This document shows, piece by piece, positions 1,860-64,000 of a DNA stretch of 64,000 nucleotides. The translations under genes were made by a program, and so were the position numbers. The DNA comes from Squalus acanthias (Eukaryota): contig JASTWF010000322.1 of assembly GCA_030390025.1 (NCBI GenBank), forward strand, positions 248,001 through 312,000, given 5' to 3'. The notes under the pieces were generated by a model, which ran no database searches, was not told where the DNA came from, and saw nothing but the letters and a program-made list of their open reading frames with translations. Position 1 is the stretch's first letter, and every line of letters begins with the position of its first letter.

Positions 1860-2251
1860 TCCCATATCCCTGCAAATTTTTCCCCTTCAAGTATTTATCC
1901 AATTCCCTTTTGAAAGTTACTATTGAATCTGCTTCCACCGCCCTTTCAGGCAGCGCGTTCCAGATCACAACAATTCGCTGCGTAAAAAAAATTCTCATCT
2001 CCCCTCTGGTTCTTTTGCCGATTATCTTCAATCTGTGTCCTCTGGTTACCCACCCTCCTGCCACTGGAAACACTTTCTCCTTATTTACTCCATCAAAACC
2101 CTTCATGATTTTGAACACCTCCATTAAATCTCCTCTTAACCTTCTCTGCTCTAAGGAGAACAACCCCAGCTTCTCCAGTCTCTCCACATCACTGAAGTCC
2201 CTCATCCCTGGTACCATTCTGGTCAATCTCCCCCTTAACCTTCTCTGCTCT
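1860..2251 (-). mobile_element. CR1 LINE ORF2 3' fragment
   Basis: ORF 1759..2505 includes LEKLGLFSLEQRRLRGDLMEVFKIMKG...FFTQRIVVIWNALPE. Confidence 0.85.
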
Positions 2252-2906
2252 AAGAAAGAAAGACTTGCATTTCTATAGCGCCTTTCACGACCACTGGATG
2301 TCCAAAAGTGCTTTACAGCCAATGAATGTAAGAACATAAGAATTAGGAGCAGGAGTCGGCCACACGGCCCCTCGAGCCTCCACCGCCATTCAACGAGATC
2401 ATGGCTGATCTTCGACCTCAATTCCACTCTCCGGCAAGAAGTACTTTTTGAAGTGTGGTCACTGTTGTAATGTGGAAAACGTGTCAGCCAATTTGCGCAC
2501 AGCAAGCTCCCACAAACAGCAATGTGATGATGACCAGATCATCTGTTTTTGTTATGTTGGTTGAGGGATAAATATTGGCCCCAGGACACCGGGGAGAACT
2601 CCCCCCCTGCTCTTCTTCCAATAGTGGCCGTGGGATCTTTTACGTCTACCTGAGAGGACAGACGGTGCCTCGGTTTAACGTCTCGTCCGAAAGACGGCAC
2701 CTCCGACAGTGCGGCACTCCCTCAGTACTGGCACCGGGGAGTGTGGGCCTGGATTATGGGGCTCGAGTCCTAAAGTATATACGTCTACCTCCGACAGTGC
2801 AGCGCGCCCTCAGTACTGGCACCGGGGAGTGTGGGCCTGGATTATGTGGCTCGAGTCCTAGAGTATATACATCTACCTCCGACAGTGCAGCGCTCCCTCA
2901 GTACTG
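2252..2906 (-). mobile_element. Deu-domain SINE (SacSINE1-like) with 88-bp VNTR, 5'-truncated, interrupted by a short CR1 3' end (about 2330-2435)
   Basis: The reverse complement carries the Deu core GTGCCGTCTTTCGGA..ACGTTAAACCGAGG..GACGTAAAAGATCCCACGG. About 2 VNTR units lie at 2704-2906. Confidence 0.8.
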
Positions 2907-3318
2907 CACTAAGGAGAACAACCCCAGCTTCTCAAGTCCCTCCACATCACTGGTACCATTCTGGTCAATCTCCCCTTAACCTTCTCTGCTCCAAGGAGAA
3001 CAATCCCAGCTTCTCCAGTCTCTCCACATCACTGAAGTCCCTCATCCCTGGTCCCATTCTGGTCAATCTCCCCCTTAACCTTCTCTGCTCCATGGAGAAC
3101 AATCCCAGCTTCTCCAGTCTCTCCACATCACTGAAGTCCTTCATCCCTGGTACCATTCTGGTCAATCTCCCCCTTAACCTTCTCTGCTCTAAGGAGAACA
3201 ACCCCAGCTGCTCCAGTCTCTCCACATCATTGAAGTGCTTCATCCCTGGTACCATTCTGGTCAATCTCCTCTCAATCTTCTCTGCTCCAAGGAGAACAAC
3301 CCCAGCTTCTCCAGTCTC
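2907..3318 (-). repeat. Tandem array of a 90-bp unit from CR1 ORF2
   Basis: About 4.5 copies translate as RLTRMVPGM.DFSDVERLEKLGLFSLEQRRLRG. The same unit occurs at about 2140-2250 and 52925-53115. Confidence 0.85.
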
Positions 3319-3649
3319 TTTAACATCCCCCTGAGAGGGCAGACGGGGCCTCCGACAGTGCATGCGGTCCAGCTGTGGACTTCACCCTCAACCTTAAAGG
3401 GACTGACCCGAGGACACATGAAGACAGTGGTTCTGCCTGTCCCAGGATAACGAGGAGAGACCGGGACTAATTCCCACAGGCGAAGAGGAATGAAGCGCTT
3501 TTTAAATTAGGGAAGGCTTTGATAGGGTTAGAGAGATGGCAATGATGGATCATCAAGGGGACGGGTTAGCAGAAACTTTATTCCGTGCAGGATTATGGAA
3601 GAAGGGAATGTTTTAATACAGGGAGAGGTTAAGGGGAAACCATTGCATG

Positions 3650-5463
3650 TTCTATGGGGAGAGAGCGGGGCAGTGGGATAAGTTTGGGGATTGATACAGG
3701 GCTATGGGGGGACAGTGGGGCAGTGGGATTAGTTTGGGGATTGATACAGGGCTATGGGGAGAGAGCGGGGCAGTGGGATTAGTTTGGGATTGATACAGGG
3801 CCATGGTGAGAGAACGGGGCAGTGGGATTAGTTTGGGGATTGATACAGGGCTATGGGGAGAGAGCGGGGCAGTCGGATTAGTTTGGGGATTGATACAGGG
3901 CTATGGGGAGAGAGCCGGGCAGTGGGATTAGTTTGAGGATTGCTACAGGGCTATGGGGAGAGAGCGGGGCAGTGGGATTAGTTTGGGGATTGATACAGGG
4001 CTGTGGGGAGAGAGCGGGGCTGTGCGATTAGTTTGAGGGATGATACAGGGCTATGGGGAGAGAGTGGGGCAGTGGGATTCGTTTGGGATTGATACAGGGC
4101 TATGGGGAGAGAGCGGGGTAGTGGGGTTAGTTTGAGGTTTGAAACAGGGCTATGGGGTGAGAGCGGGGCAGCGGGATTAGTTTGGGATTGGCAAGGCTAT
4201 GGGGAGAGAGCAGGGCAGTGGGATTAGTTTGTGGATTGACACAGGGCCATGCGGAGAGAGCGGGGCAGTGGGATTAGTTTGGGGTTTGATCCAGGGCTAT
4301 GGGGAGAGAGCGGGGCAGTGGGATTAGTTTGGGATTGATACAGGTCTATGGGGTGAGAGCCGGGCAGTGGGATTAGTTTGGGGATTGAAACGGCTATGGG
4401 AAGTAAACGGGGCAGTGGGACTAGTTTGGGAATTGATACAGGGCTATGGGGAGAGAGCGGGCCAGTGGGATTTAGTTTGGGGATTCATGCAGGGCTATGG
4501 GGAGAGAGCGGGGCAGTGGGATTAGTTTGGGAATTGATACAGGGCTATGCGGAGAGAGCCGGGGCAGTGGGATTAGTTTGGCATTGATACAGGGCTATGG
4601 GGAGAGAGCGGGGCAGTTGGATAAGTTTGGTGATTGATACAGGGTTATGGGTGAGTGCAGGGCAGTGCGATTAGTTTGGGGATTGATACAGGGCTATGGG
4701 GAGAGAGCGGGGCAGTGGGATTAGTTTGGGAATTGATACAGGGCTATGGGGAGAGAGCGGGGCAGTGGGATTAGTGTGGGATTGACACAGGGCCATGGGG
4801 AGAGAGCGGGGCAGTGGGATTAGTTTGGGGATTAATACAGGGCTCTGGGGAGAGTGCGAGGCAGTGGGATTAGTTTGGGAAATGATACAGGGCTATGGGG
4901 AGAGAGCGGGGCAGTGGGATTAGTTCGGGATTGACACAGGGCTATGGGGAGAGAGCAGGGCAGTGGGATTAGTTTGGGGATTGATACAGGGCTATGGTGA
5001 GAGAGCGGGGCAGTGTGATTATTTTGGGGGTTGATACAGGGCAATGGGGAGTGTGCAGGGCAGTGGGATTAGATTGGGGATTGATACAGGGCTATGGGGA
5101 GAGAGCGTGGCAGTGGGATTAGTTTGTGAAATGGTACAGGGCTATGGGGAGAGAGTGCGGCTCTGGGATTAGTTTCTGATTGACACAAGGCTATGGGGAG
5201 AGAACGGGGCAGTGGGATTAGTTTGGGAATTGATACAGGGCTATGGGGAGAGAGGGGGGCAGTGGGATTAGTTTGGGGATTGATACAGGGCTATGGGGAG
5301 AGAGCGGGGCAGTGGGATTAGTTTGGGATTGATACAGGGCCATGGTGAGAGAACGGGGCAGTGGGATTAGTTTGGGGATTGATACAGGGCTATGGGGAGA
5401 GAGCGGGGCAGTCGGATTAGTTTGGGGATTGATACAGGGCTATGGGGAGAGAGCGGGCAGTGG
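3650..5463 (+). repeat. G-rich 49-50 bp minisatellite (about 36 copies), running into the gap
   Basis: Unit GATACAGGGCTATGGGGAGAGAGCGGGGCAGTGGGATTAGTTTGGGGATT. It resembles the end of CR1 ORF2 (compare 17258-17305 and 53530-53573). Confidence 0.95.
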
Positions 5464-6249: not shown

Positions 6250-6375
6250 TCTCTCTGTCTCTGTCTCTCTCTGTCTCTCTCTCTCTCTCTGTCTCTCTCT
6301 CTCTGTCTCTCTCTCTCTGTCTCTCTCTCTCTCTGTCTCTCTCTGTCTCTGTCTCTCTGTCTCTGTCTCTCTCTG

Positions 6376-6407
<32 letters not shown>

Positions 6408-6427: not shown

Positions 6428-6461
<34 letters not shown>

Positions 6462-7624: not shown

Positions 7625-8211
7625 ATAGAAAGGCTTGCATCTATATAGCGCCACCTCAGAACAACCCGAAGCCAATGAAGTACTTTTTTCGAAGTGCAGT
7701 CGCTGCTGTAATGTGGGAAACGCGGCAGCCAGTTTGCGCACAGCAAGCTCCCACAAACAGCAATGTGATAATGACCAGATCATCAGTTTTTTTTAGTGAT
7801 GTTGGTTGAGGGATAAATATTGGGCCCCAGGACACCGGGGAGAACTCCCCCCTGCTCTTCTTCCAATAGTGGCCACGGGATCTTTTACGTCCACCTGAGG
7901 GGGCAGACGGGGCCTCGGTTTAACGTCTCGTCCAAAAGACGGCACCTGCGACAGTGCAGCGCTCCCTCAGTACTGGCACCGGGGAGTGTGGGCCTGGATT
8001 ATGGAGCTCGAGTCCTAGAGTATATACATCTACCTCCGACAGTGCAGCGCTCCCTCAGTACTGGCACCGGGGAGTGTGGGCCTGGATTATGGAGCTCGAG
8101 TCCGAGAGTATTTACATCTACCTCCGACAGTGCAGCGCTCCCTCAGTACTGGCACCGGGGAGTGTGGGCCTGGATTATGGAGCTCGAGTCCGAGAGTATT
8201 TACATCTACCT
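7625..8211 (-). mobile_element. Deu-domain SINE with about 3 VNTR units, 5'-truncated
   Basis: Tail, Deu core and 88-bp units (7950-8211) have the same layout as the 33668-34952 copy. Confidence 0.85.
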
Positions 8212-9074: not shown

Positions 9075-9450
9075 CTGCGCACAGCAAGATCCCACAATTA
9101 GCAATGTGGCGATGCACAGCTAATCTGTCTTTTTTGTAAGTGATATGGGTTGAGGGATAAATATTGGGCCCCAGGACACCGGGGAGAACTCCCCCCTGCT
9201 CTTCTTCGAAATAGTGGCCAGGGGATCTTTTACGTCCACCTGAGAGGGCAGACGGGGCCCTCGGTTTAACGTCTCATCTGAAAGACGGCACCTCAGACAG
9301 TGCATCGCTCCCTCAGTACTGGCACCGGGGAGTGTGGGCCTGGATTATGGGGCTCGAGTCCTAGAGTATATACATCTACCTCCGACAGTGCAGCGCTCCC
9401 TCAGTACTGGCACCGGGGAGTGTGGGCCTGGATTATGGGGCTCGAGTCCA
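9075..9450 (-). mobile_element. Deu-domain SINE fragment with VNTR
   Basis: Deu core at about 9150-9295, then about 1.7 VNTR units. Confidence 0.8.
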
Positions 9451-18515: not shown

Positions 18516-20380
18516 ACAGCGAGTCTAGGTAAAGGGTAACTATTCACAGTGGCAGAAGGTGGGTAGTGGTGTTCCACAAGGATCAGTGCTGGGACCACTG
18601 CTGTTCAGAATTAACGATTTAGACTTTGGAATCAAAATCACAATTTCTAAATTTGCGGATGACACCAAATTGGGGGGGATAGTCAATACTGAGGAGGGCT
18701 GCAACAAATTACAGGAGGACATGAATAAACTTGCAGAATGGGCATATAATTGGCAAATGAAGTTCAACACAGATAAATGTGAGGTATTGTATTTTGGTAG
18801 GAAGAATAGGGAGGTCACTTATCACTTGGAGGGTGCGAGTCTAGGTGGGGTAGAGGAACAAAGGGATCACTGAGTACAAATACACAAATCACTAAAAGTT
18901 GCGACACAGGTTAGCGAGGCCATAAAAAAAAGCAAACCAAGCACTAGGGTTTATTTCTAGAGGGTTGGAATTGAAAAGTACGGAAGTTATGCTAAACCTG
19001 TATCGAACCTTGGTTAGACCACACTTGGAGCACTGTGCACAGTTCTGGTCTCCATATACCTTGGTTAGACCACACTTGGAGCACTGTGCACAGTTCTGGT
19101 CTCCATATACCTTGGTTAGACCACACTTGGAGCACTGTGTACAGTTCTGGTCTCCGTACACCTTGGTTAGACCACACTTGGAGCACTGTGCACAGTTCTG
19201 GTCTCCGTATACCTTGGTTAGACCACACTTGGAGCACTGTGCACAGTTCTGGTCTCCATATACCTTGGTTAGACCACACTTGGAGCACTGTGCACAGTTC
19301 TGGTCTCCATATACCTTGGTTAGACCGCACTTGGAGCACTGTGTACAGTTCTGGTCTCCATATACCTTGGTTAGACCACACTTGGAGCACTGTGCACAGT
19401 TCTGGTCTCCATATCCTTTGGTTAGACCACACTTGGAGCACTGTGCACAGTTCTGGTCTCCATATACCTTGGTTAGACCACACTTGGAGCACTGTGCACA
19501 GTTCTGGTCTCCGTATACCTTGGTTAGACCACACTTGGAGCACTGTGCACAGTTCTGGTCTCCATATACCTTGGTTAGACCACACTTGGAGCACTGTGCA
19601 CAGTTCTGGTCTCCATATACCTTGGTTAGACCACACTTGGAGCACTGTGCACAGTTCTGGTCTCCATATACCTTGGTTAGACCACACTTGGAGCACTGTG
19701 CACAGTTCTGGTCTCCGTATACCTTGGTTAGACCACACTTGGAGCACTGTGCACAGTTCTGGTCTCCATATACCTTGGTCAGACCACATTTGGAGCACTG
19801 TGCACAGTCCTGGTCTCCATATACCTTGGTTAGACCACACTTGGAGTACTGCGTATTATAAAATGGATATAGAGTCACTCGAGAGGGTGCAGAGAAGATT
19901 TACAAGGATGATACCAGAAATGCGAGTTTATACATAGCAGGAAAGGATGAACAGGCTGGGTCTCTTTTCTCTTGAAAAGAGAAAGCTGAGGGGTGACCTA
20001 ATAGAGGTCTTTAAAATGATGAAAGGTTTCGATAGAGTGGATACAGAGAGAATGTTTCCACTTTTGGGGGAGAGCAAAACTAGAGGCCATCAATATAAGA
20101 TAGTCACCAAGAAATCCAATCGGGAATTCAGGAGAAACTTCTTTCCCCAGAGAGTGGTGAGAATGTGGAACTCGCTACCACAGGGAGTGGTTGAAGCGAA
20201 TAGCGTGGATGCATTTAAGGAGAGGCTGGATAAACACATGAGGGAGAAGGGAATAGAGGGTTATGCTGTTAGAGTTAGATGAGGAAAGACAGGAGGAGGC
20301 TCGAGTGGAGCATAAACGCTGGTATGGACTGGATGGGCTGAATGGCCTCTTTCTGTGCTGTATATCCGATGTAATTTTTA
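18516..20380 (+). mobile_element. CR1 LINE RT/3' fragment with an internal 51-bp array
   Basis: [10 protein letters not shown] and [10 protein letters not shown] (18559..18873), C-terminal ORF 19947..20282, then the 3' UTR. Confidence 0.88.
19007..19853 (+). repeat. 51-bp tandem array (16 full units plus a partial) inside CR1 ORF2
   Basis: Unit ACCTTGGTTAGACCACACTTGGAGCACTGTGCACAGTTCTGGTCTCCATAT, which translates TLVRPHLEHCAQFWSPY. Confidence 0.97.
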
Positions 20381-20949: not shown

Positions 20950-21707
20950 CCGGCGCCTTTAACGTAGTAAAACGTCCCAGGGTGCTTCACAGGAGCGATT
21001 ATCAAACACAATCTGACCCCGAGCCACATGAGGAGATATTAGGACAGGCGACCAAAAGCTTGGTCAAAGAGGTCGGTTTTAAGGAGCGTCTTAAAGGAGG
21101 AGAGAGAGGCGGAGAGGTTTAGGGAGGGAATTCCAGAGCTCAGGGCCCCAGGCAGCTGAAGGCACGGCCGCCAATGGTGGAGCGATGGAAATCGGGGATG
21201 CTCAAGAGGCCAGAATTGGAGGAGCGCAGAGATCTCGGAGGGATGTAGGGCTGGAGGAGGTTACAGAGATAGGGAGGGGGCGAGGGCCATGGAGGGATTT
21301 GAACAGGAGGATGAGAATTGTTGGGCTGGAGGAGGTTACAGAGATAGGGAGGGGCGAGGGGCCATGGAGGGATTTGAACAGGAGGATGAGAATTGTTGGG
21401 CTGGAGGAGGTTACAGAGATAGGGAGGGGGCGAGGGGCCATGGAGGGATTTGAACAGGAGGATGAGAATTGTAGGGGCTGGAGGAGGTTACAGAGATAGG
21501 GAGGGGGCGAGGGCCATGGAGGGATTTGAACAGGAGGATGAGAATTGTAGGGGCTGGAGGAGGTTACAGAGATAGGGAGGGGGTGAGGGGCCATGGAGGG
21601 ATTTGAACAGGAGGATGAGAATTGTAGGGGCTGGAGGAGGTTACAGAGATAGGGAGGGGGTGAGGGGCCATGGAGGGATTTGAACAGGAGGATGAGAATT
21701 TTAAAAT
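20950..21707 (-). mobile_element. L2 LINE 3' end with a 75-77 bp tandem array (21250-21700)
   Basis: Reverse complement of 23930-24375; about 6 units of GGAGGAGGTTACAGAGATAGGGAGGGGGCGAGGGCCATGGAGGGATTTGAACAGGAGGATGAGAATTGTAGGGCT. Confidence 0.85.
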
Positions 21708-22099: not shown

Positions 22100-24375
22100 G
22101 GTAAACTATCCCTCCTCGTCCTTCTTGACTTGTCTGCAGTCTTTGACACGGGTTGACCACTCCATCCTCCTCCAACGCCTCTCCACCGTCGTCCAGCTGG
22201 GTGGGACTGCACTCGCCTGGTTCCATTCTCATCTATCTAATCGTAGCCAGAGAATCACCTGCAACGGCTTCTCTTCCCACTCCCGCATCGTTACCTCTGG
22301 TGTCTCCCAAGGATCTATCCTTGGCCCCCTCCTATTTCTCATCGACATGTTGCCCCTTGGCGACCTCATCCGAAAACACAGCGTCAGTTTCCACATGTAT
22401 GCTGATGACACCCAGCTCTACCTCATTACCTCTTCTCTCGAGCCCTCCACGGTCTCTAAATTGTCCGACTGCTTGTCCGACATCCAGTTCTGGATGAGCA
22501 AAACAGAGGAACAGGAGGAGGCCCATTCAGCCCCTCGAGCCTGTTACACAGGAACAGGAGGAGGCCCATTCAGCCCCCTCGAGCCTGTTACACAGGAACA
22601 GGAGGAGGCCCATTCAGCCCCCTCGAGCCTGTTACACAGGAACAGGAGGAGGCCCATTCAGCCCCCTCGAGCCTGTTACACAGCAACAGGAGGAGGCCCA
22701 TTAAGTCCCCTGGAGCCTGTTACACAGGAACAGGAGGAGGCCCATTCAGCCCCTCGAGCCTGTTACACAGGAACAGGAGGAGGCCCATTCAGCCCCTCGA
22801 GCCTGTTGCACAGGAACAGGAGGAGGCCCATTCAGCCCCCTCGAGCCTGTTACACAGGAACAGGAGGAGGCCCATTCAGTCCCTCGAGCCTGTTACACAG
22901 GAACAGGAGGAGGCCATTCAGCCCCTCGAGCCTGTTCCGCCATTCAATGAGATCACGGCTGATCTGTGACCTAACTCCATCCACCCGCCTTTGCCCCATA
23001 TCCTTTAATACCTTTAAAAATCTATCAATCTCTGATTTAAAATTAATCTAGCATCAATTGCCGTTTGCGGAAGAGAGTCCCAAACTCCTACCACCCTTTG
23101 TGTGTAGAAGTGTTTCCTAACTTCACTCCTGAAATTCATTAAATATATTCAAGAAGGAGTTGGATATATTTCTTAAGGCTAAAGGGATCAAGGGATATAG
23201 GGAGAAAGCAGGGACAGGGTACTGAGTTTGGATGATCAGCCATGATCGCATTGAATGGCGGAGCAGGCTCGAGGGGCCGAATGGCCTACTCCTGCTCCTA
23301 TCTTCTATGTTTCTATGTTTCTATATTTCTATTCTTCCGTTTACACTGCCTGCAATGCTGCCTATCTTTGTGCCATCGGCAAATTTGTAAGACTTCTATG
23401 TGACCATCCAAGTCGTTAATAAATACTGAGAATAGTTGAGGCCCCCACACAGATCAATGTGGTACAACATTAAATGTTCTCCAGTTAAATACTGGGAAGA
23501 CCGAAGCCATTGTTTTCGGTCCCCGCCACAAACTCCGTTCCCTGGCCACTGACTCCATCCCTCTCCGTAACATCTGTCTGAGGCTGAACCACACTGTTCG
23601 CAACCTTGGTGTCATATTTGACCCTGAAATGAGCTTCTGACCACATATCCGCAGCATAACAAAGACCGCCTACTTCCACCTCCGTAACATCGCCCGTCTC
23701 CGCCCCTGCCTCAGCTCATCCGCTGCTGAAACCCTCATCCCTGCCTTTGTTACCTCCAGACTTGACTATTCCAACGCTCTCCTGGCTGCCCTCCCACATT
23801 CCACCCTACGTAAACTTGAGGTCATCCAAAACTCGGCTGCCCCCGTGTCCTAACTCGCACCAAGTCCCGTTCACCCATCACCCCCTGTGCTCGCTGACCT
23901 ACGCTGGCTCCCGGTCCGGCAACGCCTCGATTTCACAATTCTCATCCTCCCGTTCAGATCCCTCCATGGCCCCTCGCCCCCTCCCTATCTCTGTAACCTC
24001 CTCCAGCCCTACAATTCTCATCCTCCTGTTCAAATCCCTCCATGGCCCTCGCCCCCCTCCCTATCTCTGTAACCTCCTCCAGCCCTACAACCCTCCGAGA
24101 TCTCTGCGCTCCTCCAATTCTGGCCTCTCGCGCATCCCCGATTTCCATCGCTCCACCATTGGCGGCCGTGCCTTCAGCTGCCTGGGGCCCTGAGCTCTGG
24201 AATTCCCTCCCTAAACCTCTCCGCCTCTCTCTCCTCCTTTAAGACGCTCCTTAAAACCGACCTCTTTGCCCAGCTTTTGGTCGCCTGTCCTAATATCTCC
24301 TTATGTGGCTCGGGGTCAGATTGTGTTTGATAATCGCTCCTGTGAAGCGCCCTGGGACGTTTTACTACGTTAATC
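22100..24375 (+). mobile_element. L2 LINE RT to 3' end, split by CR1-derived inserts at about 22503-23470
   Basis: GVSQGSILGPLLF..HMYADDTQLY..IQFWMSK (22125-22502) resumes with LQLNTGKTEAIVFG at about 23478. It ends with the L2-type tail GTGAAGCGCCCTGGGACGTTTTACTACGTTAA. Confidence 0.85.
22503..22935 (+). repeat. 42-43 bp minisatellite (about 10 units) still attached to its parent CR1 3' UTR
   Basis: Unit CCTGTTACACAGGAACAGGAGGAGGCCCATTCAGCCCCTCGAG. It continues directly into CCGCCATTCAATGAGATCA..., a minus-strand CR1 3' end. Confidence 0.93.
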
Positions 24376-24834: not shown

Positions 24835-26040
24835 ACCTCAGAAAGTGCTTGGTCGACTGTGAAGCAGTCCTGAAATCGGGAAAGATATCAACGCAGGTTC
24901 TGAAGTGAGGCCGCTGTTGCAATGCAGGAAACTCGGCGCCCAATTTGCGCACAGCAAGATCCCATAAACAGCAAGGTCAGGACGACCAGATCGCCTGTTT
25001 TTTAGTGATGTTGGTTGAGGGATAAATATTGGGCCCAGGACACCGGGGAGAATTCCGCACCCCCCTGCTCTTCTTACAATAGTGGCCGTGGGATCTTTTA
25101 CGTCCACCTGAGAGGGCAGACGGGGCCTCGGTTTAACGTCTCTGACAGTGCAGCGCTCCCTCAGTACTGGCACCGGGGAGTGTGGGCCTGGATTATGGGG
25201 CTCGAGTCCCAGAGTATATACATCTACCTCCGACAGTGCAGCGCGCCCTCAGTACTGGCACCGGGGAGTGTGGGCCTGGATTATGGGGCTCCAGTCCTAG
25301 AGTATATACATCTACCTCCGACACTGCAGCGCTCCCTCAGTACTGGCACCGGGGAGTGTGGGCCTGGATTATGGGGCTCGAGTCCTAGAGTATATACATC
25401 TACCTCCGACAGTGCAGCGCTCCCTCAGTACTGGCACCGGGGAGTGTGGGCCTGGATTATGGGGCTCGAGTCCTAGAGTATATACATCTACCTCCGACAC
25501 TGCAGCGCTCCCTCAGTACTGGCACCGGGGAGTGAGGGCCTGGATTATGGGGCTCGAATCCTAGAGTATATACATCTACCTCCGACAGTGCAGCACTCCC
25601 TCAGTACTGGCACCGGGGAGTGTGGGCCTGGATTATGGGGCTCAAGTCCTCGAGTATACACATCTACCTCCGACAGTGCAGCGCTCCCTCAGTACTGGCA
25701 CCGGGGAGTGTGGGCCTGGATTATGGGGCTCGAGTCCGAGAGTATATACATCTACCTCCGACAGTGCAGCGCTCCCTCAGTACTGGCACCGGGGAGTGTG
25801 GGCCTGGATTATGGGGCTCCAGTCCGAGAGTATATACATCTACCTCCGACAGTGCAGCGCTCCCTCAGTACTGGCACCGGGGAGTGTGGGCCTGGATTAT
25901 GGGGCTCGAGTCCGAGAGTATATACATCTACCTCCGACAGTGCAGCGCTCCCTCAGTACTGGCACCGGGGAGTGTGGGCCTGGATTATGGGGCTCCAGTC
26001 CGAGAGTATATACATCTACCTCCGACAGTGCAGCGCTCCC
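24835..26040 (-). mobile_element. Deu-domain SINE with about 10 VNTR units, 5'-truncated
   Basis: Tail and Deu core at 24835-25142; 88-bp array at 25143-26040. Confidence 0.88.
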
Positions 26041-48187: not shown

Positions 48188-51100
48188 AATGACCCAGCCT
48201 ACACAGATCTCTGGGGAAGAGAATTACAAATGCTAACATATTACCCCCAACCCCGTGAGCCCTTATCTTGTGCAGTAACCTTTTACGTGGCACCTTAGCG
48301 AATGCCTTCTGGAAATCCAAATACACTACATCTACTTGTTCCCCTTTATCCACCCTGCTCGTTACATCCTCAAAGAACTCCAGCAAATTTGTCAAACATG
48401 ATTTCCCTTTCATAAAACCATGCTGACTCTGCTTGAAACATAGAAGATAGGAGCAGGAGTAGGCCATTCGGCCCCTCGAGCCTGCTCCGTCATTCGATGA
48501 GATCATGGCTGATCATCCAAACTCAGTACCCTGTACCTGCCTTCTCCCCATATCCCTTGATACCTTTAGCTTTAAGAAATATATCTAACTCATTCTTGAA
48601 TATAATTAATGACTTGGCCTCAACTACCTTCTGTGGTAGAGAATTCCACAGGTTCACCACTCTCTGGGTGAAGAAATTCTTCCTCATTTCTGTCCTAAAT
48701 GGCTTACCCCTTATCCTTAGACTGTGACCCCTGGTTCTGGACTCCCCGGCCATCAGGAACATCCTTCCTGCATCTAGTTTGTCCAGACCGGTCAGAATTT
48801 TATATGTTTCGATGAGATCCCCTCTCATTCTTCTATACCCCAGCAAGTATAAGCCCAATCGACCCAATCTCTCCTCATATGTCATTCCTGCCATCCCAGG
48901 TATCAGCCTTGTGAATCTTCGCTGAACTCCTTCCATGGCAAGAACATCCTTCCTCAGATAAGGCGACCAAAACTGCACACAGTACTCAAGGTGTGGTCTC
49001 ACCAAGGCCCTGTACAACTGCAGCAGGACATCCCTGTTCCTATACTCAAACCCTCTCGCTATGAAGGCCAACATACCATTTGCCTTCTTCACCGCCTGCT
49101 GCACCTGCATGCTTACCTTCAGCGACTGGTGCACAAGGACACCCAGGTCTAGTTGCACTTCCCCTTCTCCCAATCTATTGCCATTCAGATAATAGTCTGC
49201 CTTGACTATATTATGATTTTCTAAATGTCCTGCTACCACTTCCTTGATGATGGACTCCAGCATTTTCCCCAATAACAGATGTTGGGCTAACTGGTCTATA
49301 CTTGCCTGCTTTCTGTCTCCCTCCTTTCTTAAATAGGGGGGGGGGGTTACATTTGCGGTTTTCCAGTCCGCTGGGACCTCTCCAGAGTCCAGGGAATTTC
49401 GGTAGATTACAACCAATGCGTCCGCTATCTCTGCGGCCACCTCTTTGATCTGCGGGGTGGCCAGCTCCTGAAACGTGCTCTCCACGAAGTTCTCAGCCTC
49501 GCGGATGCTCCGCAATGACGCCAGCCGCCACTCGAGCTCCGAAACCCGAGGCTCGAGCTGCTGTAGCTGGCGACACTTCCCGCGCACGCGGTCGTCCAGG
49601 ACTTCCCACATGGCCCAGGATGTACATTCCACAGGACCGAGCTGCCCTGCCACGCCTCTATTTATTAGATTAATTAACTAAAGTTTTTAGTATCCCCTCC
49701 ACCCTAAATTAAAGACAACAGACAAGAAAGAAAAACAGTGATACTCACCAGCCCGGAACCTGAATAGCAAGGAAAAACGATTCTGTTTCAGACCTTGGTT
49801 AGACCACACTTGGAGCACTGTGCACAGTTCTGGTCTCCATATACCTTGGTTAGACCACACTTGGAGCACTGTGCACAGTTCTGGTCTCCATATACCTTGG
49901 TTAGACCACACTTGAAGCACTGTGCACAGTTCTGGTCTCCCTATACCTTGGTTAGACCGCACTTGACTGTGCACAGTTCTGGTCTCCATATACCTTGGTT
50001 AGACCGCACTTGACTGTAAACAGTTCTGGTCTCCATATACCTTGGTTAGACCACACTTGAAGCACTGTACACAGTTCCGGTCTCCATATACCTTGGTTAG
50101 ACCACACTTGGAGCACTGTGCACAGTTCTGGTCTCCATATACCTTGGTTAGACCACACTTGGAGCACTGTGCACAGTTCTGGTCTCCATATACCCTGGTT
50201 AGACCACACTTGGAGCACTGTGCACAGTTCTGGTCTCCATATTATATAAAAGGATATAGAGACACTGGAGAAGGTGCAAAAAGATTTACAAGGATGATCC
50301 CAGTACTGAGAGGTTACAACGATCAGGAAAGGATGAACAGGCTGGGGCTCTGCTCTGGAAAAGAGAAGACTGAGGGGCGACCTGATCGAGGTCTTTAAGA
50401 TTATGAAAGGGTTCGACAGGGTAGACGTAGACAAGATGTTTCCACTTGTGGGGGAGACCAGAACTAGGGGCCATCAATATAAGATAGTCACTAATAAATC
50501 CAATCGGGAATTCAGGAGAAACTTCTTTACCCAGAGAGTGGTGAGAATGTGGAACTCGCTCCCACAGGGAGTGGTTGAGGCGAATAGCACAGATGTATTT
50601 AAGGGGAAGCTGGATAAACACATGAGGGAGAAGGGAATAGAGGGTTATGTTGACGGGGTGAGATGAAGAAAGGTGGGAGGAAGCTCGTGTGGAGCAGGAA
50701 CACCGGCACAGACCACATAACAGAAGAAATAGGAGCAGGAGTCGGCCATTCGGCCCCTCGAGCCTGCTCCGCCATTCAATAAGATCATGGCTGATCTTCG
50801 ACCTCAACTCCACTTTCCCGCCCGATCTCCATATCCCTCGATTCCCCGAGAGTCCAAAAATCTATCGATCTCAGCCTTGAATATACTCAACGACTAAGCC
50901 TCCACAGCCCTCTGGGGCAGAGAATTCCAAAGATTCACCGCCCTCTGAGTGAAGAAATTCCTCCTCATCTCAGTCCTAAATGGCCGACCCCTTATCCTGA
51001 GACTGTGACCCCTGGTTCTAGACTCTCCAGCCAGTGGGAAACAGCCTCTCAGCATCTACCCTGTCAATCCCCCTCAGAATCTTATACGTTTCAATGAGAT

Positions 51101-52894: not shown

Positions 52895-53645
52895 ATAAGG
52901 AGGACCTTGGAGAGGGTGCAGAGGAGATTTGACCAGAATGGGACCAGGGGATGAGGGACTTCAGTGACGTGGAGAAGCTGGGATTGTTCTCCTTGGAGCA
53001 GAGAAGGTTAAGGGGGAGATTGACCAGAATGGGACCAGGGATGAGGGACTTCAGTGATGTGGAGAGACTGGAGAAGCTGGGGTTGTTCTCCTTGGAGCAG
53101 AGAAGGTTAAGGGGAGATTTAATAGAGGCGTTCAAAATCACAAAGGGTTTTGATGGAGTAAATAAGGAGAAACTGTTTCCAGTGGCAGGAGGGTGGGTAA
53201 CCAGAGGACACAGATTGAAGATAATCGGCAAAAGAACCAGAGGGGAGATGAGGAGAATGTTTTTTACGCAGCGAGTTGTTGTGATCTGGAAGATGTGCGG
53301 GTTAGGTTGATTTGGCTATGATAAATTGACCCTTAGTGTTAGGGGGATTAAATACGTGGGGTTACGGGGATAGGGTGGGACATGTGTCGGTGCAGGCTCG
53401 ATGGGCCGAAATGGCCTCTATCTGCACTGTGGGGATTCTGTGGAATGCGCTGCCTGAAAGGGCGGTGGAAGCAGATTCAATCGTAACTTTCAAAAGGGAA
53501 TCGGAGAAATACTTGAAAGGGAAAAATTTACAGGGCTGTGGGGAAAGAGCGAGGGGAGAGTGGGACTAATTGGAGAGCTCGACCAAAGAGCCGGCACAGG
53601 CACGATGGGCCGAATGGCCTCCTTCTGTGCCGTATCGTTCTATGA
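52895..53645 (+). mobile_element. CR1 3' fragment with a V-SINE/HE1-like insert (about 53290-53440)
   Basis: ORF 52951..53310 is CR1. The insert AAGATGTGCGGGTTAGGTTGATTTGGCTATGATAAATTGACCCTTAGTGT... resembles the V-domain and ends in a CR1-type tail. CR1 resumes at TGGAATGCGCTG. Confidence 0.7.
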
Positions 53646-55064: not shown

Positions 55065-56320
55065 CCCAGGGTGCTTCACAGGAGCGATTATCAAACACAA
55101 TTTGACCCCGAGCCACATAAGGAGATATTAGGGACAGGTGATCAAAAGCTGGGTCACAGACGCCGGTTTTAAGGAGCGTCTTAAAGGAGGAGAGAGAGGC
55201 GGAGAGGTTTAGGGAGGGAATTCCAGAGCTCAGGGCCCCAGGCAGCTGAAGGCACGGCCGCCAATGGTGGAGCGATGGAAATCGGGGGATGCTCAAGAGG
55301 CCAGAATTGGAGGAGCGCAGAGATCTCGGAGGATTGTAGGGCTGGAGGAGGTTACAGAGATAGGGAGGGGGGCGAGGGCCATGGAGGGATTTGAACAGGA
55401 GGATGAGAATTGTAGGGGTTGGAGGAGGTTACAGAGATAGGGAGGGGGCGAGGGGCCATGGAGGGATTTGAACAGGAGGATGAGAATTGTAGGGGTTGGA
55501 GGAGGTTACAGAGATAGGGAGGGGGCGAGAGCCATGGAGGGATTTGAACAGGAGGATGAGAATTGTAGGGGTTGGAGGAGGTTAGAGATAGGGAGGGGGC
55601 GAGGGCCATGGAGGGATTTGAACAGGAGGATGAGAATTGTAGGGGTTGGAGGAGGTTACAGAGATAGGGAGGGGGCGAGGGCCATGGAGGGATTTGAACA
55701 GGAGGATGAGAATTGTAGGGGTTGGAGGAGGTTACAGAGATAGGGAGGGGGCGAGGGCCATGGAGGGATTTGAACAGGAGGATGAGAATTGTAGGGGGTG
55801 GAGGAGGTTATAGAGATAGGGAGGGGGCGAGGGGCCATGGAGGGATTTGAACAGGAGGATGAGAATTGTAGGGGCTGGAGGAGGTTACAGAGATAGGGAG
55901 GGGGCGAGGGGCCATGGAGGGATTTGAACAGGAGGATGAGAATTGTAGGGGCTGGAGGAGGTTACAGAGATAGGGAGGGGGCGAGCGGCCATGGAGGGAT
56001 TTGAACAGGAGGATGAGAATTGTAGGGGTTGGAGGAGGTTACAGAGATAGGGAGGGGGCGAGGGCCATGGAGGGATTTGAACAGGAGGATGAGAATTGTA
56101 GGGCTGGAGGAGGTTACAGAGATAGGGAGGGGGTGAGGACCATGGAGGGATTTGAACAGGAGGATGAGAATTGTAGGGCTGGAGGAGGTTACAGATATAG
56201 GGAGAGGGCGAGGGGTGTGAGTTTGGACATGGGGGCAGCAGGAGTTTTGGATGACCTCAAGATTACGGGGGAGTGGAAGCTGGGAGGCCGGCCAGGAGAG
56301 CGTTGGAATAGACAAGGCTG
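55065..56320 (-). mobile_element. L2 3' end with about 11 units of the 75-77 bp array (55335-56210)
   Basis: Same layout and unit as 20950-21707. Confidence 0.88.
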
Positions 56321-58113: not shown

Positions 58114-58189
58114 CTTGAATCCTTCGCTGGCTGGCTGGCGCGGACCTGGCCGGGAGGAAAAGAGGCGGTTAGAATCGCGGTGCAGGCCC

Positions 58190-61100
58190 GTTACCATCGA
58201 AACAGGAGGAGGCCCGCTCAGCCAACTCGAGCCTGTTACACAGGAACAGGAGGAGGCCCATTCAGCCCCTCGAGCCTGTTACACAGGAACAGGAGGAGGC
58301 CCATTCAGCCCCCTCGAGCCTGTTACACAGGAACAGGAGGAGGCCCGTTCAGCCCCTCGAGTCTGTTACACAGGGACAGGAGGAGGCTCATTCAGCTGCT
58401 CGAGCCTGTGACACAGGAAGGAACAGGAGGAGGCTCATTTAGCCCCTCGAGGCTGTTACACAGGAACAGGAGGAGGCCCATTCAGCCCCCTTGAGCCTGT
58501 TACACGGGAACAGGAGGAGGCCCATTCAGCCCCTCGGGCCTGTTACACAGGGACAGGAGGAGGCCCATTCAGCCCCTCGAGCCTGTTACACAGGAACAGG
58601 AGGAGGCCCATTCAGCCCCTCCAACCTGTTACACAGGAACAGGAGGAGGCCAATTCTGCCCCTTGAGCCTGTTACACAGGAACAGGAGGCGGCCCATTCA
58701 GCCCCCTCGAGCCTGTTACACAGGAACAGGAGGAGGCCATTCAGCCCCTCGAGCCTGTTATACAGGAACCGGAGGAGGCCCATTCAGCCCCCTCGATTCT
58801 GTTACACAGGAACAGGAGGAGGCACATTCAGCCCCTCGAGCCTGTTACATAGGATCAGGGGGAGCCCAATTCAGCCCCTCGAGCCTGTTACACAGGAACA
58901 GGAGGAGGCCCATTCAGCCCCTCGAAACTGTTACACAGGAACAGGAGGAGGCCCGTTCAGCCCCCTCGATCCTGTTACACAGGAACCGGAGTTGGCCCAT
59001 TCAGCCCCCTCGAGCCTGTTACACAGGAACAGGGGGAGGCCCATTCAGCCCCCTCGATCCTGTAGCACAGGAACAGGAGAAGGCCCATTGAGCCCCCTCG
59101 AGCCTGTGACACAGGAACAGGAGGAGGCCCATTCAGCCCCCTCGAGTCTGTTACACAGGAACAGGAGGAGGCTCATTCAGCCCCTCGAGCCTGTTACACA
59201 GGAACAGGAGGAGGCTCATTCAGCCGCTCGAGCCTGTGACACAGGAACAGGAGGAGGCCCATTCAGCCCCTCGAGGCTGTTACACAGCAACAGGAGGAGG
59301 CCCATTCAGCCCCTCGAGCCTATTACACAGGAACAGGAGGAGGCCCATTCAGCCCCCTTGAGCCTGTTACACGGGAACAGGAGGAGGCCAATTCAGCCCC
59401 TCGGGCCTGTTACACAGGAACAGGAGGAGGCCCATTCAGCCCCTCGGGCCTGTTACACAGGAACAGGAGGAGGTCCATTCAGCCTCTCGGGCCTGTTACA
59501 CAGGAACAGGAGGAGGTCCATTCAGCCCCTCGAGCCTGTTACACAGGAACAGGAGGAGGTCCATTCAGCCCGTCGAGCCTGTTACACAGGATCAGGCGGA
59601 GGCCCATTCAGTCCCTCGACCCTGTTACACAAGAACAGGAGTAGGCCCATGCAGCCCCTCGAGCCTGTTACCATCGGAACAGGAGGAGGCCCATTCAACC
59701 CCCACGAGCCTGTTACACGGGAACAGGAGGAGGTCCATTCAGCCCCCTCGAGCCTGCTACACAGGAACAGGAGGAGGCCCATTCAACCCCCTCGATCATG
59801 TTACACAGGAACAGGAGAAGGCCAATTCTGCCCCTCGAGTCTGTTACACAGGAACAGGAGGAGGCCCATTCAGCCCCCTCGAGCCTGTTACACAGGAACA
59901 GGAGGAGGTCCATTCAGCCTCTCGGGCCTGTTACACAGGAACAGGAGGAGGTCCATTCAGCCCCTCGAGCCTGTTACACAGGAACAGGAGGAGGTCCATT
60001 CAGCCCCCCACCCACCCCCCCCCACCCCCGAGTCTGTTACACAGGAACAGGAGGAGGCCCATTCAGCCCCTCGAGCCTGTCACACAGGAGTAGGCCCATT
60101 CAGCCCCTCGAACCTGTCACACAGGAGTAGGCCCATTCAGCCCCCTCGAGCGTGTTACATAGGAACCGGAGGTGACCCATTCAGCCCACTCGAGCCTGTT
60201 ACACAGGAACAGGAGGAGGCCCATTCAGCCCCTCGAGCCTGTTACAAAGGAACAGGAGGAGGCCCATTCAGCCCCTCGAGCCTGTTACAAAGGAACAGGA
60301 GGAGGCCCATTCAGCCACTCGAGCCTGTTACACAGCAACAGGAGGAGGCCAATTCTGCCCCTCGAGCCTGTTACACAGCAACAGGAAGAAGCCCATTCAG
60401 CCCCTCGAACCTGTTACACAGGAACAGCAGGAGGCCCATTCAGCCCCTCCAACCTGTTACACAGGAACAGGAGGAGGCCAATTCTGCCCCTTGAGCCTGT
60501 TATACAGGAACAGAAGGAGGCCCATTCAGCCCCCTCGAGCCTGTTACACAGGAACCGGAGGAGGCCATTCAGCCCCTCGAGCCTGTTACACAGGAACAGG
60601 AGAAGGCCATTCAGCCCCTCGAGCCTGTTACACAGGAACAGGAGGAGGCCCATTCAGCCCCTCGAGCCTGTTACACAGGAACAGGAGGAGGCTCATTCAG
60701 CCCCCTCGAGTCTGTTACACGGGAACAGGAGTAGGCCCATTCAGCCCCTCGGGCCTGTTGTACAGGAACCGGAGGAGGCCAATTCTGCCCCTTGAGCCTG
60801 TTACACAGGAACAGGAGGAGGCCATTCAGCCCCTCGAGCCTGTTACACAGGAACAGGAGGAGGCCATTCAGCCCCTCGAGCCTGTTACACTGGAACAGGA
60901 GGAGGCCAATTCTGCCCTTTGAGCCTGTTACACAGGAACAGGAGGAGGCCCATTCAGCCTCTCGGGCCTGTTACACAGGAACCGGAGGAGGCCCATTCAG
61001 CCCCCTCGAGCCTGTTACACAGGAACAGGAGGAGGCCATTCAGCCCCTCGAGCCTGTTACACAGGAACAGGGGGAGGCCCATTCAGCCCCCTCGATCCTG

Positions 61101-64000
61101 TAGCACAGGAACAGGAGAAGGCCCATTCAGCCCCCTCGAGCCTGTGACACAGGAACAGGAGGAGGCCCATTCAGCCCCCTCGAGTCTGTTACACAGGAAC
61201 AGGAGGAGGCTCATTCAGCCCCTCGAGCCTGTTACACAGGAACAGGAGGAGGCTCATTCAGCCGCTCGAGCCTGTGACACAGGAACAGGAGGAGGCTCAT
61301 TTAGCCCCTCGAGGCTGTTACACAGCAACAGGAGGAGGCCCATTCAGCCCCTCGAGCCTATTACACAGGAACAGGAGGAGGCCCATTCAGCCCCCTTGAG
61401 CCTGTTACACGGGAACAGGAGGAGGCCAATTCAGCCCCTCGGGCCTGTTACACAGGAACAGGAGGAGGCCCATTCAGCCCCTCGGGCCTGTTACACAGGA
61501 ACAGGAGGAGGCCCATTCAGCCCCTCGAGCCTGTTACACAGGAACAGGCGGAGGCCATTCAGCCCCCCCGAGCCTGTTACACAGGAACAGGAGGAGGCCC
61601 ATTCAGTCCCTCGACCCTGTTACACAAGAACAGGAGTAGGCCCATTCAGCCCCTCGAGCCTGTTACCATCGGAACAGGAGGAGGCCCAATCAACCCCCAC
61701 GAGCCTGTTACACGGGAACAGGAGGAGGTCCATTCAGCCCCCTCGAGCCTGCTACACAGGAACAGGAGGAGGCCCATTCAACCCCCTCGATCATGTTACA
61801 CAGGAACAGGAGAAGGCCAATTCTGCCCCTCGAGCCTGTTACACAGGAACAGGAGGAGGCCCATTCAGCCCCCTCGAGCCTGTCACACAGGAACAGGAGG
61901 AGGCCCATTCAGCCCCCCGCCCCCCCCCCGATTCTGTTACACAGGAACAGGAGGAGGCCCATTCAGCCCCTCGAGCCTGTCACACAGGAGTAGGCCCATT
62001 CAGCCTCTCGAACCTGTCACACAGGAGTAGGCCCATTCAGCCCCCTCGAGCGTGTTACCTAGGAACCGGAGGTGACCCATTCAGCCCACTCGAGCCTGTT
62101 ACACAACAACAGGAGGAGGCCAATTCTGCCCCTCGAGCCTGTTACCCAACAACAGGAAGAAGCCCATTCAGCCCCTCGAACCTGTTACACAGGAACAGCA
62201 GGAGGCCCATTCAGCCCCTCCAACCTGTTACACAGGAACAGGAGGAGGCCAATTTTGCCCCTTGAGCCTGTTATACAGGAACAGAAGGAGGCCCATTCAG
62301 CCCCCTCGAGCCTGTTACACAGGAACAGGAGGAGGCCATTCAGCCCCTCGAGCCTGTTACACTGGAACAGGAGGAGGCCAATTCTGCCCTTTGAGCCTGT
62401 TACACAGGAACAGGAGGAGGCCCATTCAGCCTCTCGGGCCTGTTACACAGGAACCGGAGGAGGCCCATTCAGCCCCCTCGAGTCTGTAACACAGGAACAG
62501 GAGGAGGCTCATTCAGCCCCTCGAGCCTGTTACACAGGAACAGGAGGAGGCCCATTCAGCCCCCTCGAGCCTGTTACACAGGAACAGGAGGAGGCCCATT
62601 CAGCCCCCTCGAGCCTGTTACACAGGAACAGGAGGAGGCCCATTCAGCCCCCTCGAGCCTGTTACACAAGAACAAGAGGAGGCCCATTCAGCCCCCTCGA
62701 GTCTGTTACACAGGGACAGGAGGAGGCCAATTCTGCCCTTTGAGCCTGTCACAAAGGAACAGGAGGAGGCCCATTCAGCCTCTCGGGCCTGTTACACAGG
62801 AACAGGAGGAGGCCCATTCAGCCTCTCGGGCCTGTTACACAGGAACAGGAGGAGGCCCATTCAGCCCCCTCGAGCCTGTTACAGGGGAACAGGAGTAGGC
62901 CCATTCATCCCCTCGGGCCTGTTGCACAGGAACAGGAGGAGGCCCATTCAGCCCCCTCGATCCTGTTACACAGGAACAGGAGGAGGCTCATTTAGCCCCT
63001 CGAGGCTGTTACACAGCAACAGGAGGAGGCCCATTCAGCCCCTCGAGCCTATTACACAGGAACAGGAGGAGGCCCATTCAGCCCCTCGAGCCTGCTGCAC
63101 AGGAACAGGAGGAGGCCAATTCTGCCTCTCGAGCCTGTTGCACAGGAACAGGAGGAGGCTCATCCATTCCCTCGATCCTGTTACACAGGAACCGGAGGAG
63201 GCCCATTCTGCCCCCTCGAGCCTGTTACACAGGAACCGGAGGAGGCCCATTCAGTCCCCCCGAGCCTGTTACACAGGAACAGGAGAAGGCCCATTCAGCT
63301 CCTCGAGCCTGTTACACAGGAACAGGAGGAGGCTCATTCAGCCCCTCGAGCCTGTTACACGGGAACAGGAGTAGGCCCATTCAGCCCCTCGGGCCTGTTG
63401 TACAGGAACAGGAGGAGGCCCATTCAGCCCCCTCGATCCTGTTACACAGGAACCGGAGGAGGCCCATTCAGCCCCTCGAGCCTGTTACACAGGAACCGGA
63501 GGAGGCCCATTCAGCCCCTCGAGCCTGTTACACAGGAACAGGAGGAGGCCCATTCAGTCCCCTCGATCCTGTTACACAGGAACAGGAGGAGGCCCATTCA
63601 GCCCCCTCGAGCCTGTTACACAGGAACCGGAGGAGGCCCATTCAGCCCCCTCGAGCCTGTTACACAGGAACAGGAGGAGGCTCATTTAGCCCCTCGAGGC
63701 TGTTACACAGCAACAGGAGGAGGCCCATTCAGCCCCTCGAGCCTATTACACAGGAACAGGAGGAGGACCATTCAGCCCCTTCGAGCCTGTTACACAGGAA
63801 CAGGAGGAGGCCCATTCAGCCCCTCGAGCCTGCTGCACAGGAACAGGAGGAGGCCAATTCTGCCTCTCGAGCCTGTTGCACAGGAACAGGAGGAGGCTCA
63901 TCCATTCCCTCGATCCTGTTACACAGGAACCGGAGGAGGCCCATTCTGCCCCCTCGAGCCTGTTACACAGGAACCGGAGGAGGCCCATTCAGTCCCCCCG
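58190..64000 (+). repeat. 42-43 bp minisatellite (>130 units, runs off the window) in the intron of zinc-finger gene 2
   Basis: Same unit as 22503-22935; larger blocks within the array are duplicated. Confidence 0.97.

What the first reader, a model, noticed from the sequence alone, without database searches (positions are those of the whole stretch)
2140..64000. Systematic conversion of retroelement segments into minisatellites: six families in one window
Seen: a 50-bp unit (CR1 ORF2 end, 1 locus), 90-bp (CR1 ORF2, 3 loci), 51-bp (CR1 ORF2, 2 loci), 75-77 bp (L2, 4 loci, both orientations), 88-bp (SINE, 6 loci) and 42-43 bp (CR1 3' UTR, 2 loci). Each family has fixed unit boundaries, and most arrays remain attached to the parent element. 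Inference: a regional process (RT template slippage, ectopic conversion, or circle reinsertion) generates and spreads VNTRs. I do not know of a description of this as a system, but I cannot check the literature.
Basis: partly seen in the sequence, partly recalled or inferred. Interest (0 to 1): 0.7.

Follow-up and report, generated by a model that had tools for sequence, protein, structure and literature searches.

The report
Retroelement-derived minisatellite families, shark-like genome
In this shark-like stretch of DNA, short pieces of several jumping genes have been multiplied into head-to-tail repeats that were then copied between sites; the phenomenon is already described in frogs and reptiles, and the new part is the clues here to how such repeats move from copy to copy.

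Summary
The arrays are real: six retroelement-derived families at 17 loci cover 14,374 bp, 22.5% of the window. Corrections: the '90-bp' unit is 99 bp, has two loci (one split by a SINE insertion), and the 50-bp array has no parent attached. A second sample holds the unique sequence at one tested locus, and its contigs cross the 77- and 88-bp junctions. The junctions mostly arose once and spread. The 88-bp unit carries a non-parental insert at 6 of 6 loci. The same 51-bp unit sits in two CR1 subfamilies 13.5% apart. Only the 99-bp unit has a direct repeat allowing repeated local origin. Spread looks mixed: retrotransposition of array-bearing templates (3' parent side alone kept at 7 loci, 5' alone at 0; one apparent target-site duplication) plus homology-directed grafting onto other copies. 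This kind of system is described: squamate SINE-derived satellites (PMC10702118) and Xenopus subtelomeric SINE/CR1 minisatellites (10.1101/2021.10.18.464293). My ten searches found no shark report. Regionality is untested: no genome was available, and other breakpoints exist genome-wide.

The parts
2127..2254 (-). 99-bp CR1-ORF2-derived array, locus A, left piece; 3' parent flank kept at 1959-2126
2255..2906 (-). 5'-truncated SINE with 2.4 units of the 88-bp array (2699-2906), inserted into the 99-bp array; CTAAG duplicated at 2250-2254 and 2909-2913
2907..3319 (-). 99-bp array, locus A, right piece (about 4 units); 5' parent absent
3652..5463 (+). 50-bp array (36.5 units) resembling a CR1 ORF2 end; no parent attached; ends at an N gap
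7944..8211 (-). 88-bp SINE-derived array, 3 units; SINE 3' part kept, head absent
9290..9449 (-). 88-bp array, 1.8 units; host 7% diverged within 150 nt of the array and 28% beyond
19007..19851 (+). 51-bp CR1-ORF2-derived array, 16.6 units, in a host of a different CR1 subfamily; host allele resumes in the last partial unit
21244..21700 (-). 77-bp L2-derived array, 6 units; 3' parent kept, about 12 nt of 5' parent
22503..22936 (-). 43-44-bp array, 10 units, forming the 3' end of a CR1 copy (3' stem-loop region) inserted in an L2
23935..24090 (+). 77-bp L2-derived array, 2 units, both parent sides kept; junction crossed by contigs of run X3
25140..26040 (-). 88-bp array, 10 units; host 7% diverged near the array and 24% beyond; unique flank confirmed in run X3
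26268..26540 (+). 77-bp array, 3.6 units; deletion on the 5' side, about 30 nt of 3' parent
34109..34884 (-). 88-bp array, 8.8 units, in the only SINE copy that keeps its tRNA-like head (34885 to about 34957)
39022..39212 (+). 88-bp array, 2.2 units, opposite orientation; 3' SINE part kept, head absent
49792..50242 (+). 51-bp array, 9 units; starts at the unit boundary, 3' CR1 flank kept
52923..53119 (+). 99-bp array, locus B (one 90-nt and one 99-nt unit), bounded by the 7-nt direct repeat GGAGATT
55329..56214 (-). 77-bp array, 11.7 units; 3' parent kept, deletion on the 5' side
58183..64000 (-). 43-44-bp array, more than 133 units, running off the window; contains a duplication at about 2.0 kb distance with up to 99% identity; lies just upstream of a C2H2 zinc-finger exon

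Best explanation
These are multi-locus, retroelement-derived minisatellite families of the kind described in squamates and frogs. Step 1 (inferred from junctions): each unit was born once by a tandem duplication inside one LINE or SINE copy, through a short direct repeat (99-bp unit), a blunt join (51-bp) or a join with a short fold-back insert (88-bp). Step 2 (spread is shown, route inferred): the duplicated form reached other loci in two ways. Array-bearing RNA was retrotransposed, giving copies with an intact 3' part, cut off inside the array. Arrays were also transferred by homology into other copies of the same element family. Step 3 (inferred from established minisatellite biology): each array then grew or shrank locally by unequal exchange or conversion, probably helped by a GC-rich, highly recombining setting. 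No function is implied.
For: Single origin: the 16-nt non-parental segment is in the units of 6 of 6 loci, and 5 of 32 unit variants are shared between loci. Exact junction microhomology is 0 nt for the 51- and 88-bp units, 2 nt for the 77-bp unit (null 0.19) and 7 nt for the 99-bp unit (null 0.0007). All 25 full 51-bp units but two with a small deletion there carry a His codon where 13 of 13 monomeric CR1 copies carry Tyr. Transfer between hosts: the two 51-bp hosts differ at 61 of 452 sites, with 19 of 32 coding differences at third positions (P=0.002), while their first units differ at 0 of 51; host 19007 resumes its own Tyr allele after the array. Two of six SINE hosts step from about 7% to 24-28% divergence 150 nt from the array (P=1e-6, 5e-5). 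RNA route: of 14 internal-array loci, 7 keep only the 3' parent side, 0 only the 5' side, 7 both (sign test P=0.016); one 5'-truncated array-bearing SINE has a 5-nt duplication of its target; three L2 hosts are 96-98% alike and share 11 of 14 alleles that differ from the commoner alleles in the laid contigs. Reality: a 620-nt contig of run X3 matches 24350-24969 with 1 difference, and X3 contigs with 11-13 differences cross the 77- and 88-bp junctions. Literature.
Against: One window only; genome-wide counts, chromosome position and orthologous empty sites could not be examined. The loci are not independent events, so the sign test overstates. Only 1 locus shows an apparent target-site duplication; 9 other end pairs gave matches no longer than chance, and a duplication inside a tandem array can arise by phase coincidence. 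The divergence step in two SINE hosts may reflect a conserved central SINE domain or subfamily mosaicism: a control host also steps weakly (7944, P=0.03). For the 88-bp family the flank-versus-unit difference is small (3.7-11.3% against 3.4-5.7%), and for the 77-bp family absent. Other unit boundaries occur in the same parent segments (2,700 joints passed the listing threshold, 15 shown). The parents of the 50- and 43-bp junctions could not be reconstructed.
Confidence: 0.7

Rival explanations
1. DNA-level spread only: arrays move between element copies by non-allelic gene conversion or one-ended strand invasion in a highly recombining region, with no RNA step.
For: The 51-bp array in a foreign-subfamily host with both sides kept; divergence steps in two SINE hosts; GC-ward shift of window alleles against the commoner alleles in run X3 (74 strong-to-weak against 16 weak-to-strong differences; 15 against 2 for transversions); the Xenopus study ascribes such expansions to subtelomeric recombination.
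Against: It gives no reason for 7 to 0 retention of the 3' side, nor for the apparent target-site duplication at 2250/2909.
Confidence: 0.15
2. Units are excised as small circles, amplified by rolling-circle synthesis and reinserted by homology into parent-family copies.
For: A blunt or insert-bearing junction repeated head to tail, inside a host that keeps both sides (19007, 34109), is what a crossover with a multimeric circle would leave.
Against: No direct sign of circles was testable. It does not predict 3' polarity, and it cannot graft onto a host that keeps only 4 nt of the last unit (8208-8211).
Confidence: 0.07
3. Independent local slippage at the same favourable direct repeat in each element copy.
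For: The 99-bp unit is bounded by a 7-nt exact direct repeat (null 0.0007), the Haber-Louis type of origin as described. Several other breakpoints exist genome-wide.
Against: The 51- and 88-bp junctions have no microhomology; a shared insert, shared variants and a foreign allele in host 19007 cannot arise independently.
Confidence: 0.04
4. The repeated loci are segmental duplications of one block, or assembly artefacts.
For: The 50-bp array ends at an N gap, and the long 43-bp array holds a near-identical internal duplication. Array lengths were not checked against long reads.
Against: Among 12 array loci compared, the alignments stop at element boundaries and share no unique flank. Units vary within arrays by 3-4%. 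Run X3 holds the unique flank and both tested junctions.
Confidence: 0.04

Closest known systems
SINE-derived satellites (sSat1-3) of squamates, Vassetzky, Kosushkin and Ryskov 2023 (PMC10702118; parts 1-4 of 5 of the main text read, supplements not read)
   Same: Multi-locus arrays of one fixed part of a tRNA-type SINE; a longer terminal unit running to one SINE end; some units with 14-44 extra nucleotides of unknown origin; units more alike than the SINE copies; several variants per SINE.
   Different: That study covers SINEs only; here LINE ORF2 and 3' UTR pieces give four or five further families in one window. It found either end attached, here the 3' side dominates. It reports subtelomeric location, untested here. 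In the parts read it proposes unequal recombination and does not test spread by retrotransposition.
Subtelomeric minisatellites of Xenopus tropicalis from SINE/tRNA-V, LINE/CR1 and Kolobok-2 pieces (10.1101/2021.10.18.464293; passages read, supplements not seen)
   Same: Several element classes give tandem arrays in one GC-rich, recombining region; a 52-bp SINE piece is expanded only in regional copies while intact copies lie genome-wide.
   Different: Other elements and lineage; the passages give no junction analysis and ascribe expansion to unequal crossing-over. Position and recombination rate of this window are unknown.
Human TE-derived tandem repeats, multilocus clusters and LTR12/L1PA internal repeats, Ahmed and Liang 2012 (PMC3389668; parts 1-3 of 4 read)
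   Same: 23% of human minisatellites derive from elements; 185 multilocus clusters; spread by transposition is suggested where the master carries the repeat; a minority has flanking direct repeats, mostly 7 bp.
   Different: Mostly single-locus and 2-3 units; no regional hotspot was seen there.
Non-allelic gene conversion among Alu copies (PMC8230782; two passages read)
   Same: Older copies partly replaced by sequence of younger subfamilies, as inferred for host 19007.
   Different: The passages do not concern transfer of a tandem array.
SacSINE1 / Deu-domain SINEs of cartilaginous fishes (PMC5499810; passages read)
   Same: tRNA-like head, conserved body and L2-type tail fit the parent of the 88-bp unit, by recall of its appearance.
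   Different: No sequence comparison was possible; the word 'tandem' occurs 0 times in that paper.

Membership tests
SINE-derived satellites (sSat) | Tandem unit shorter than the SINE and derived from a part of it | tested here: met
   88-bp unit continuous with the SINE body at 6 of 6 loci and with a tRNA-like head at 34885
SINE-derived satellites (sSat) | Same unit boundaries at many loci | tested here: met
   6 of 6 loci; contigs with 13 differences cross the same junction in run X3
SINE-derived satellites (sSat) | Terminal unit extends to one SINE end | tested here: met
   3' part kept at 6 of 6, head at 1 of 6
SINE-derived satellites (sSat) | At least four middle monomers (that paper's working threshold) | tested here: inconclusive
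   met at 2 of 6 loci (25140, 34109)
SINE-derived satellites (sSat) | Units more alike than the host SINE copies | tested here: inconclusive
   units 3.4-5.7%, flanks 3.7-11.3%; flank larger in 13 of 15 pairs, pairs not independent
SINE-derived satellites (sSat) and Xenopus subtelomeric minisatellites | Subtelomeric or high-recombination location | not testable with these tools
   no genome held; window GC 47-65% per 2 kb and GC-ward alleles are indirect only
Retrotransposed array-bearing elements (TPRT products) | Intact 3' end with 5' truncation | tested here: met
   7 loci 3'-only, 0 loci 5'-only, 7 both, of 14
Retrotransposed array-bearing elements (TPRT products) | Target-site duplication | tested here: inconclusive
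   5 nt at one locus; 9 other end pairs at chance level
Retrotransposed array-bearing elements (TPRT products) | Array-bearing transcript | not tested
   no RNA run was laid
Direct-repeat-initiated minisatellites (Haber-Louis; seen only as cited) | 5-10-bp direct repeat at the unit ends in the parent | tested here: not met
   met by 1 of 4 testable families (99-bp, 7 nt); 0, 0 and 2 nt for the others
SacSINE1 / CR1 / L2 clade labels | Similarity to curated consensus sequences | not testable with these tools
   no repeat library; labels recalled; RVT_1 at 18529-18870 only; no Rfam match

The most novel reading that the evidence does not exclude
LINE reverse transcriptase is the main vehicle of these minisatellites, and it can prime on old genomic copies: array-bearing RNA anneals to a broken older copy, is copied from that point towards its 5' end and breaks off inside the array. 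One mechanism would then give the 3' polarity, the young array-proximal segment on old SINE hosts and the array in a foreign CR1 subfamily. The 43-bp family would come from repeated copying of the LINE's 3' stem-loop. Minisatellite families would behave as passengers that colonise existing element copies.
Probability: 0.2. Interest if true: 0.65.

Novelty: new member of a known kind. Interest (0 to 1): 0.35.

Why it matters
It extends element-derived minisatellite families, described in squamates and frogs, to a shark-like genome and to several LINE regions at once. It suggests what part of the tandem-repeat excess on small shark chromosomes (PMC10620051, passages) may be made of. The preserved junctions and hosts make an open question testable: whether such arrays reach new loci by retrotransposition or by recombination. 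It is not a new kind of system, and no function is indicated.

Tried and rejected
Rfam: 0 matches. Pattern scans for the 88-bp junction and for the unit core found 0 stretches in metagenome, prokaryote-genome and viral collections. Word shares do not show that organisms B-E hold the 88-bp junction: insert-free words alone could give shares of 0.68 (P=0.12) or 0.57 (P=0.59); only the top run (0.81, P=0.001) needs junction words, and it may be the source sample. Raw reads of organism H were too distant (69 reads laid, 94% running on unlike) to count junctions. Segmental duplication rejected. A first codon count was spoiled by frameshifts and redone on the 92 in-frame codons. In one search unit splitting stopped at 41 units of the long 43-bp array and gave none at 2127. 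Folding z-scores of the CR1 3' end, SINE head and 88-bp junction were not significant (-0.37, -0.56, 0.72), so no structure claim rests on them. Reading-frame preservation (51 and 99 are multiples of 3; 50 and 77 are not) is within chance. Earlier-finding look-ups by sequence and by the fullest word sets gave nothing.
Full report
Setting. The window is dense with LINE- and SINE-like pieces, two C2H2 zinc-finger exons and a Penelope-like ORF. I read it as a cartilaginous-fish genome by recall of its repeats; earlier notes on the same genome say the same, unchecked. The labels CR1, L2 and SacSINE1/Deu-type SINE are recalled, since no repeat library was on hand. No whole genome was held.

Observation. 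The 99-bp pieces at 2127-2254 and 2907-3319 are one array split by a SINE: the left piece ends in CTAAG and the right piece resumes two bases before CTAAG. That gives 17 loci and 14,374 bp, 22.5% of the window. Fifteen of 17 touch parent sequence. All 6 SINE copies and all 4 L2 copies that reach the unit region carry arrays. For CR1 the arrays are subfamily-specific: 13 of 15 copies spanning the 51-bp region are monomers, 76-86% like the unit.

Not an artefact. I laid 23700-25260 on 4 of the 21 listed runs. Run X3 (organism A, not the top holder) has a 620-nt contig over 24350-24969 with 1 difference at depth 6.15; runs of organisms B, D and H have no depth over 24442-24706. X3 contigs with 11 and 13 differences cross the 77-bp junction (records 9, 10) and the 88-bp junction (record 16, depth 51), so these junctions also stand at other loci. 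For organisms B and D no junction-crossing piece is among the 8 shown per run, and word shares cannot decide. Array lengths and the other four families were not checked against reads. Among 12 array loci compared pairwise, alignments end at element boundaries, which argues against segmental duplication.

Junctions. Exact microhomology between the parent at the unit start and at the unit end is 7 nt for the 99-bp unit (null 0.0007 in 20,000 random pairs), 2 nt for the 77-bp unit (null 0.19) and 0 for the 51- and 88-bp units. The 88-bp unit ends in 16 nt not found in the attached parent at 34885; about 6 of them may be altered parent. The segment folds back on itself with an 8-bp arm and one bulge, which 1 of 400 shuffles reached; I infer snap-back synthesis during a single end-joining event. 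It is present at 6 of 6 loci, and 5 of 32 unit variants recur at two or three loci. The 51-bp units carry a His codon where 13 of 13 monomeric CR1 copies have Tyr. So at least two families arose once and spread; repeated local origin is credible only for the 99-bp unit. The 50- and 43-bp junctions lack a reconstructable parent.

Transfer into other copies. The two 51-bp hosts differ at 61 of 452 sites, and 19 of 32 differences in 92 in-frame codons are at third positions (P=0.002), so they are different subfamilies. Their first units differ at 0 of 51 sites (chance 0.0006 at that divergence), inner units by 4.1%, and host 19007 returns to its own Tyr allele in the last partial unit. The array there is foreign and entered by exchange within a shared 24-nt stretch (inference). 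SINE hosts 9290 and 25140 differ from host 39022 at 10 of 148 and 9 of 132 sites near the array but 39 of 137 and 38 of 158 beyond 150 nt (P=1e-6, 5e-5); hosts 2699 and 7944 give P=0.63 and 0.03. A conserved central SINE domain could also cause such a step.

Retrotransposition. In element orientation, of 14 internal-array loci 7 keep only the 3' parent side, none only the 5' side and 7 both (one with about 12 nt; P=0.016); the three loci of the 43- and 50-bp families were left out. Five of 6 SINE copies lack the head and break at different unit positions. The SINE at 2255-2906 is 5'-truncated inside its array and flanked by a 5-nt duplication; 9 other end pairs showed nothing above chance, and phase coincidence inside a tandem array cannot be excluded. 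Three L2 hosts are 2.2-3.7% apart, like their units, and share 11 of 14 alleles that differ from the commoner ones in the laid contigs, as expected of an array-bearing subfamily. The 43-bp array at 22503 forms the 3' end of its CR1 copy.

Regional or genome-wide. Summed contig depth at the edge of the 88-bp insert is 4%, 10% and 6% of that in the SINE body in X3, X2 and X9. The tool warns that this is no copy number, so it only hints that 6 of 6 is an enrichment. Window alleles are GC-richer than the commoner alleles (74 against 16 differences), which fits GC-biased conversion or a GC-rich young subfamily. Against a few fixed families: the same parent segments show other recurrent joints, such as a 36-nt back-jump in L2 (17, 20 and 13 contigs in X3, X2, X9) and 57-62-nt skips in the SINE unit; 15 were shown and 2,685 more were not. 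Earlier notes record a CR1-derived 49-bp satellite and an L2-derived 28-bp array on other pieces of this genome (leads, not checked).

What is known. Vassetzky et al. 2023 (PMC10702118; parts 1-4 of 5 read) describe SINE-derived satellites in 56 squamate genomes with fixed units, one SINE end attached, 14-44 extra nucleotides in some units and subtelomeric location. The Xenopus genome preprint (10.1101/2021.10.18.464293; passages) reports subtelomeric arrays from SINE, CR1 and Kolobok pieces, with a 52-bp unit expanded only in subtelomeric copies. Ahmed and Liang (PMC3389668; parts 1-3 of 4) count 7,276 human cases and 185 multilocus clusters. A review states that dispersal of internal repeats by transposition is commonly accepted (PMC6947457; passages), another lists CR1- and L1-ORF2-derived satellites (PMC9659126; passages). 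Shark papers note more simple tandem repeats on small chromosomes and chromosome ends, without naming an element origin in the passages seen (PMC10620051; 10.1101/2025.06.08.657570; PMC13100897). PMC5499810, PMC8230782 and PMC11481361 were seen as passages. Ten searches listed no paper on such families in sharks; most subscription journals are not searched, and supplements of the frog and shark papers, which I did not see, may bear on this.

Verdict. Real, and a clear example, but a new member of a known kind. Shown: the arrays, their shared junctions, their presence at other loci, and one array in a foreign-subfamily host. Inferred: single origins, a mixed RNA and recombination route of spread, local expansion. 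Untested: regionality, polymorphism, transcripts, circles. Interest 0.35; the bolder reading, reverse transcriptase grafting arrays onto old copies, has probability about 0.2.

Noticed in passing
window 10247-10878 (-) and 57430-58145 (-): Two GC-rich C2H2 zinc-finger exons, each with a splice-acceptor-like site and a multi-kilobase minisatellite just upstream (41-bp array 11323-15199; 43-bp array from about 58183).
   Followed up: partly
window 10996-11120 and 11323-15199: A 41-42-bp array of about 94 units with a short inverted copy next to it; no parent element found in the window.
   Followed up: partly
window 9892-10127: A 20-bp array of about 12 degenerate units downstream of the first zinc-finger exon; no other match in the window.
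   Followed up: no
window 28228-31995: Penelope-like element: 577-aa frame with RVT_1 and a weak GIY-YIG match, bounded by a direct repeat of about 590 nt at 97%.
   Followed up: partly
window 33851-33949: A 99-nt piece inside the full-length SINE is 100% identical, inverted, to 31859-31957 at the end of the Penelope-like element; similar pieces at 45649-45745 and 20388-20462.
   Followed up: no
window 59091 and 61129 onwards: Within the long 43-bp array a block recurs about 2.0 kb later at up to 99% identity over 300 nt: recent unequal exchange or an assembly duplication.
   Followed up: partly
window 18996-19937 and 52933-53310: The 51-bp and 99/90-bp arrays keep the CR1 ORF2 frame open, as 17- and 33/30-codon repeats; within chance for four ORF-derived units.
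   Followed up: partly
window 25164-25229 and 23979-24090, runs X3, X2, X9, X21: Joints point to further, shorter tandem units from the same SINE and L2 segments (about 31-33 and 36 nt), shared by three organisms, one also by 2 reads of organism H; none forms an array in this window.
   Followed up: partly
window 37787-38344: An RTE-like 3' fragment (label recalled) ending in a weak C2H2 motif.
   Followed up: no
window 6250-6635 and 54012-54988: Long interrupted (TC)n/(GA)n tracts of about 0.4 and 1 kb.
   Followed up: no
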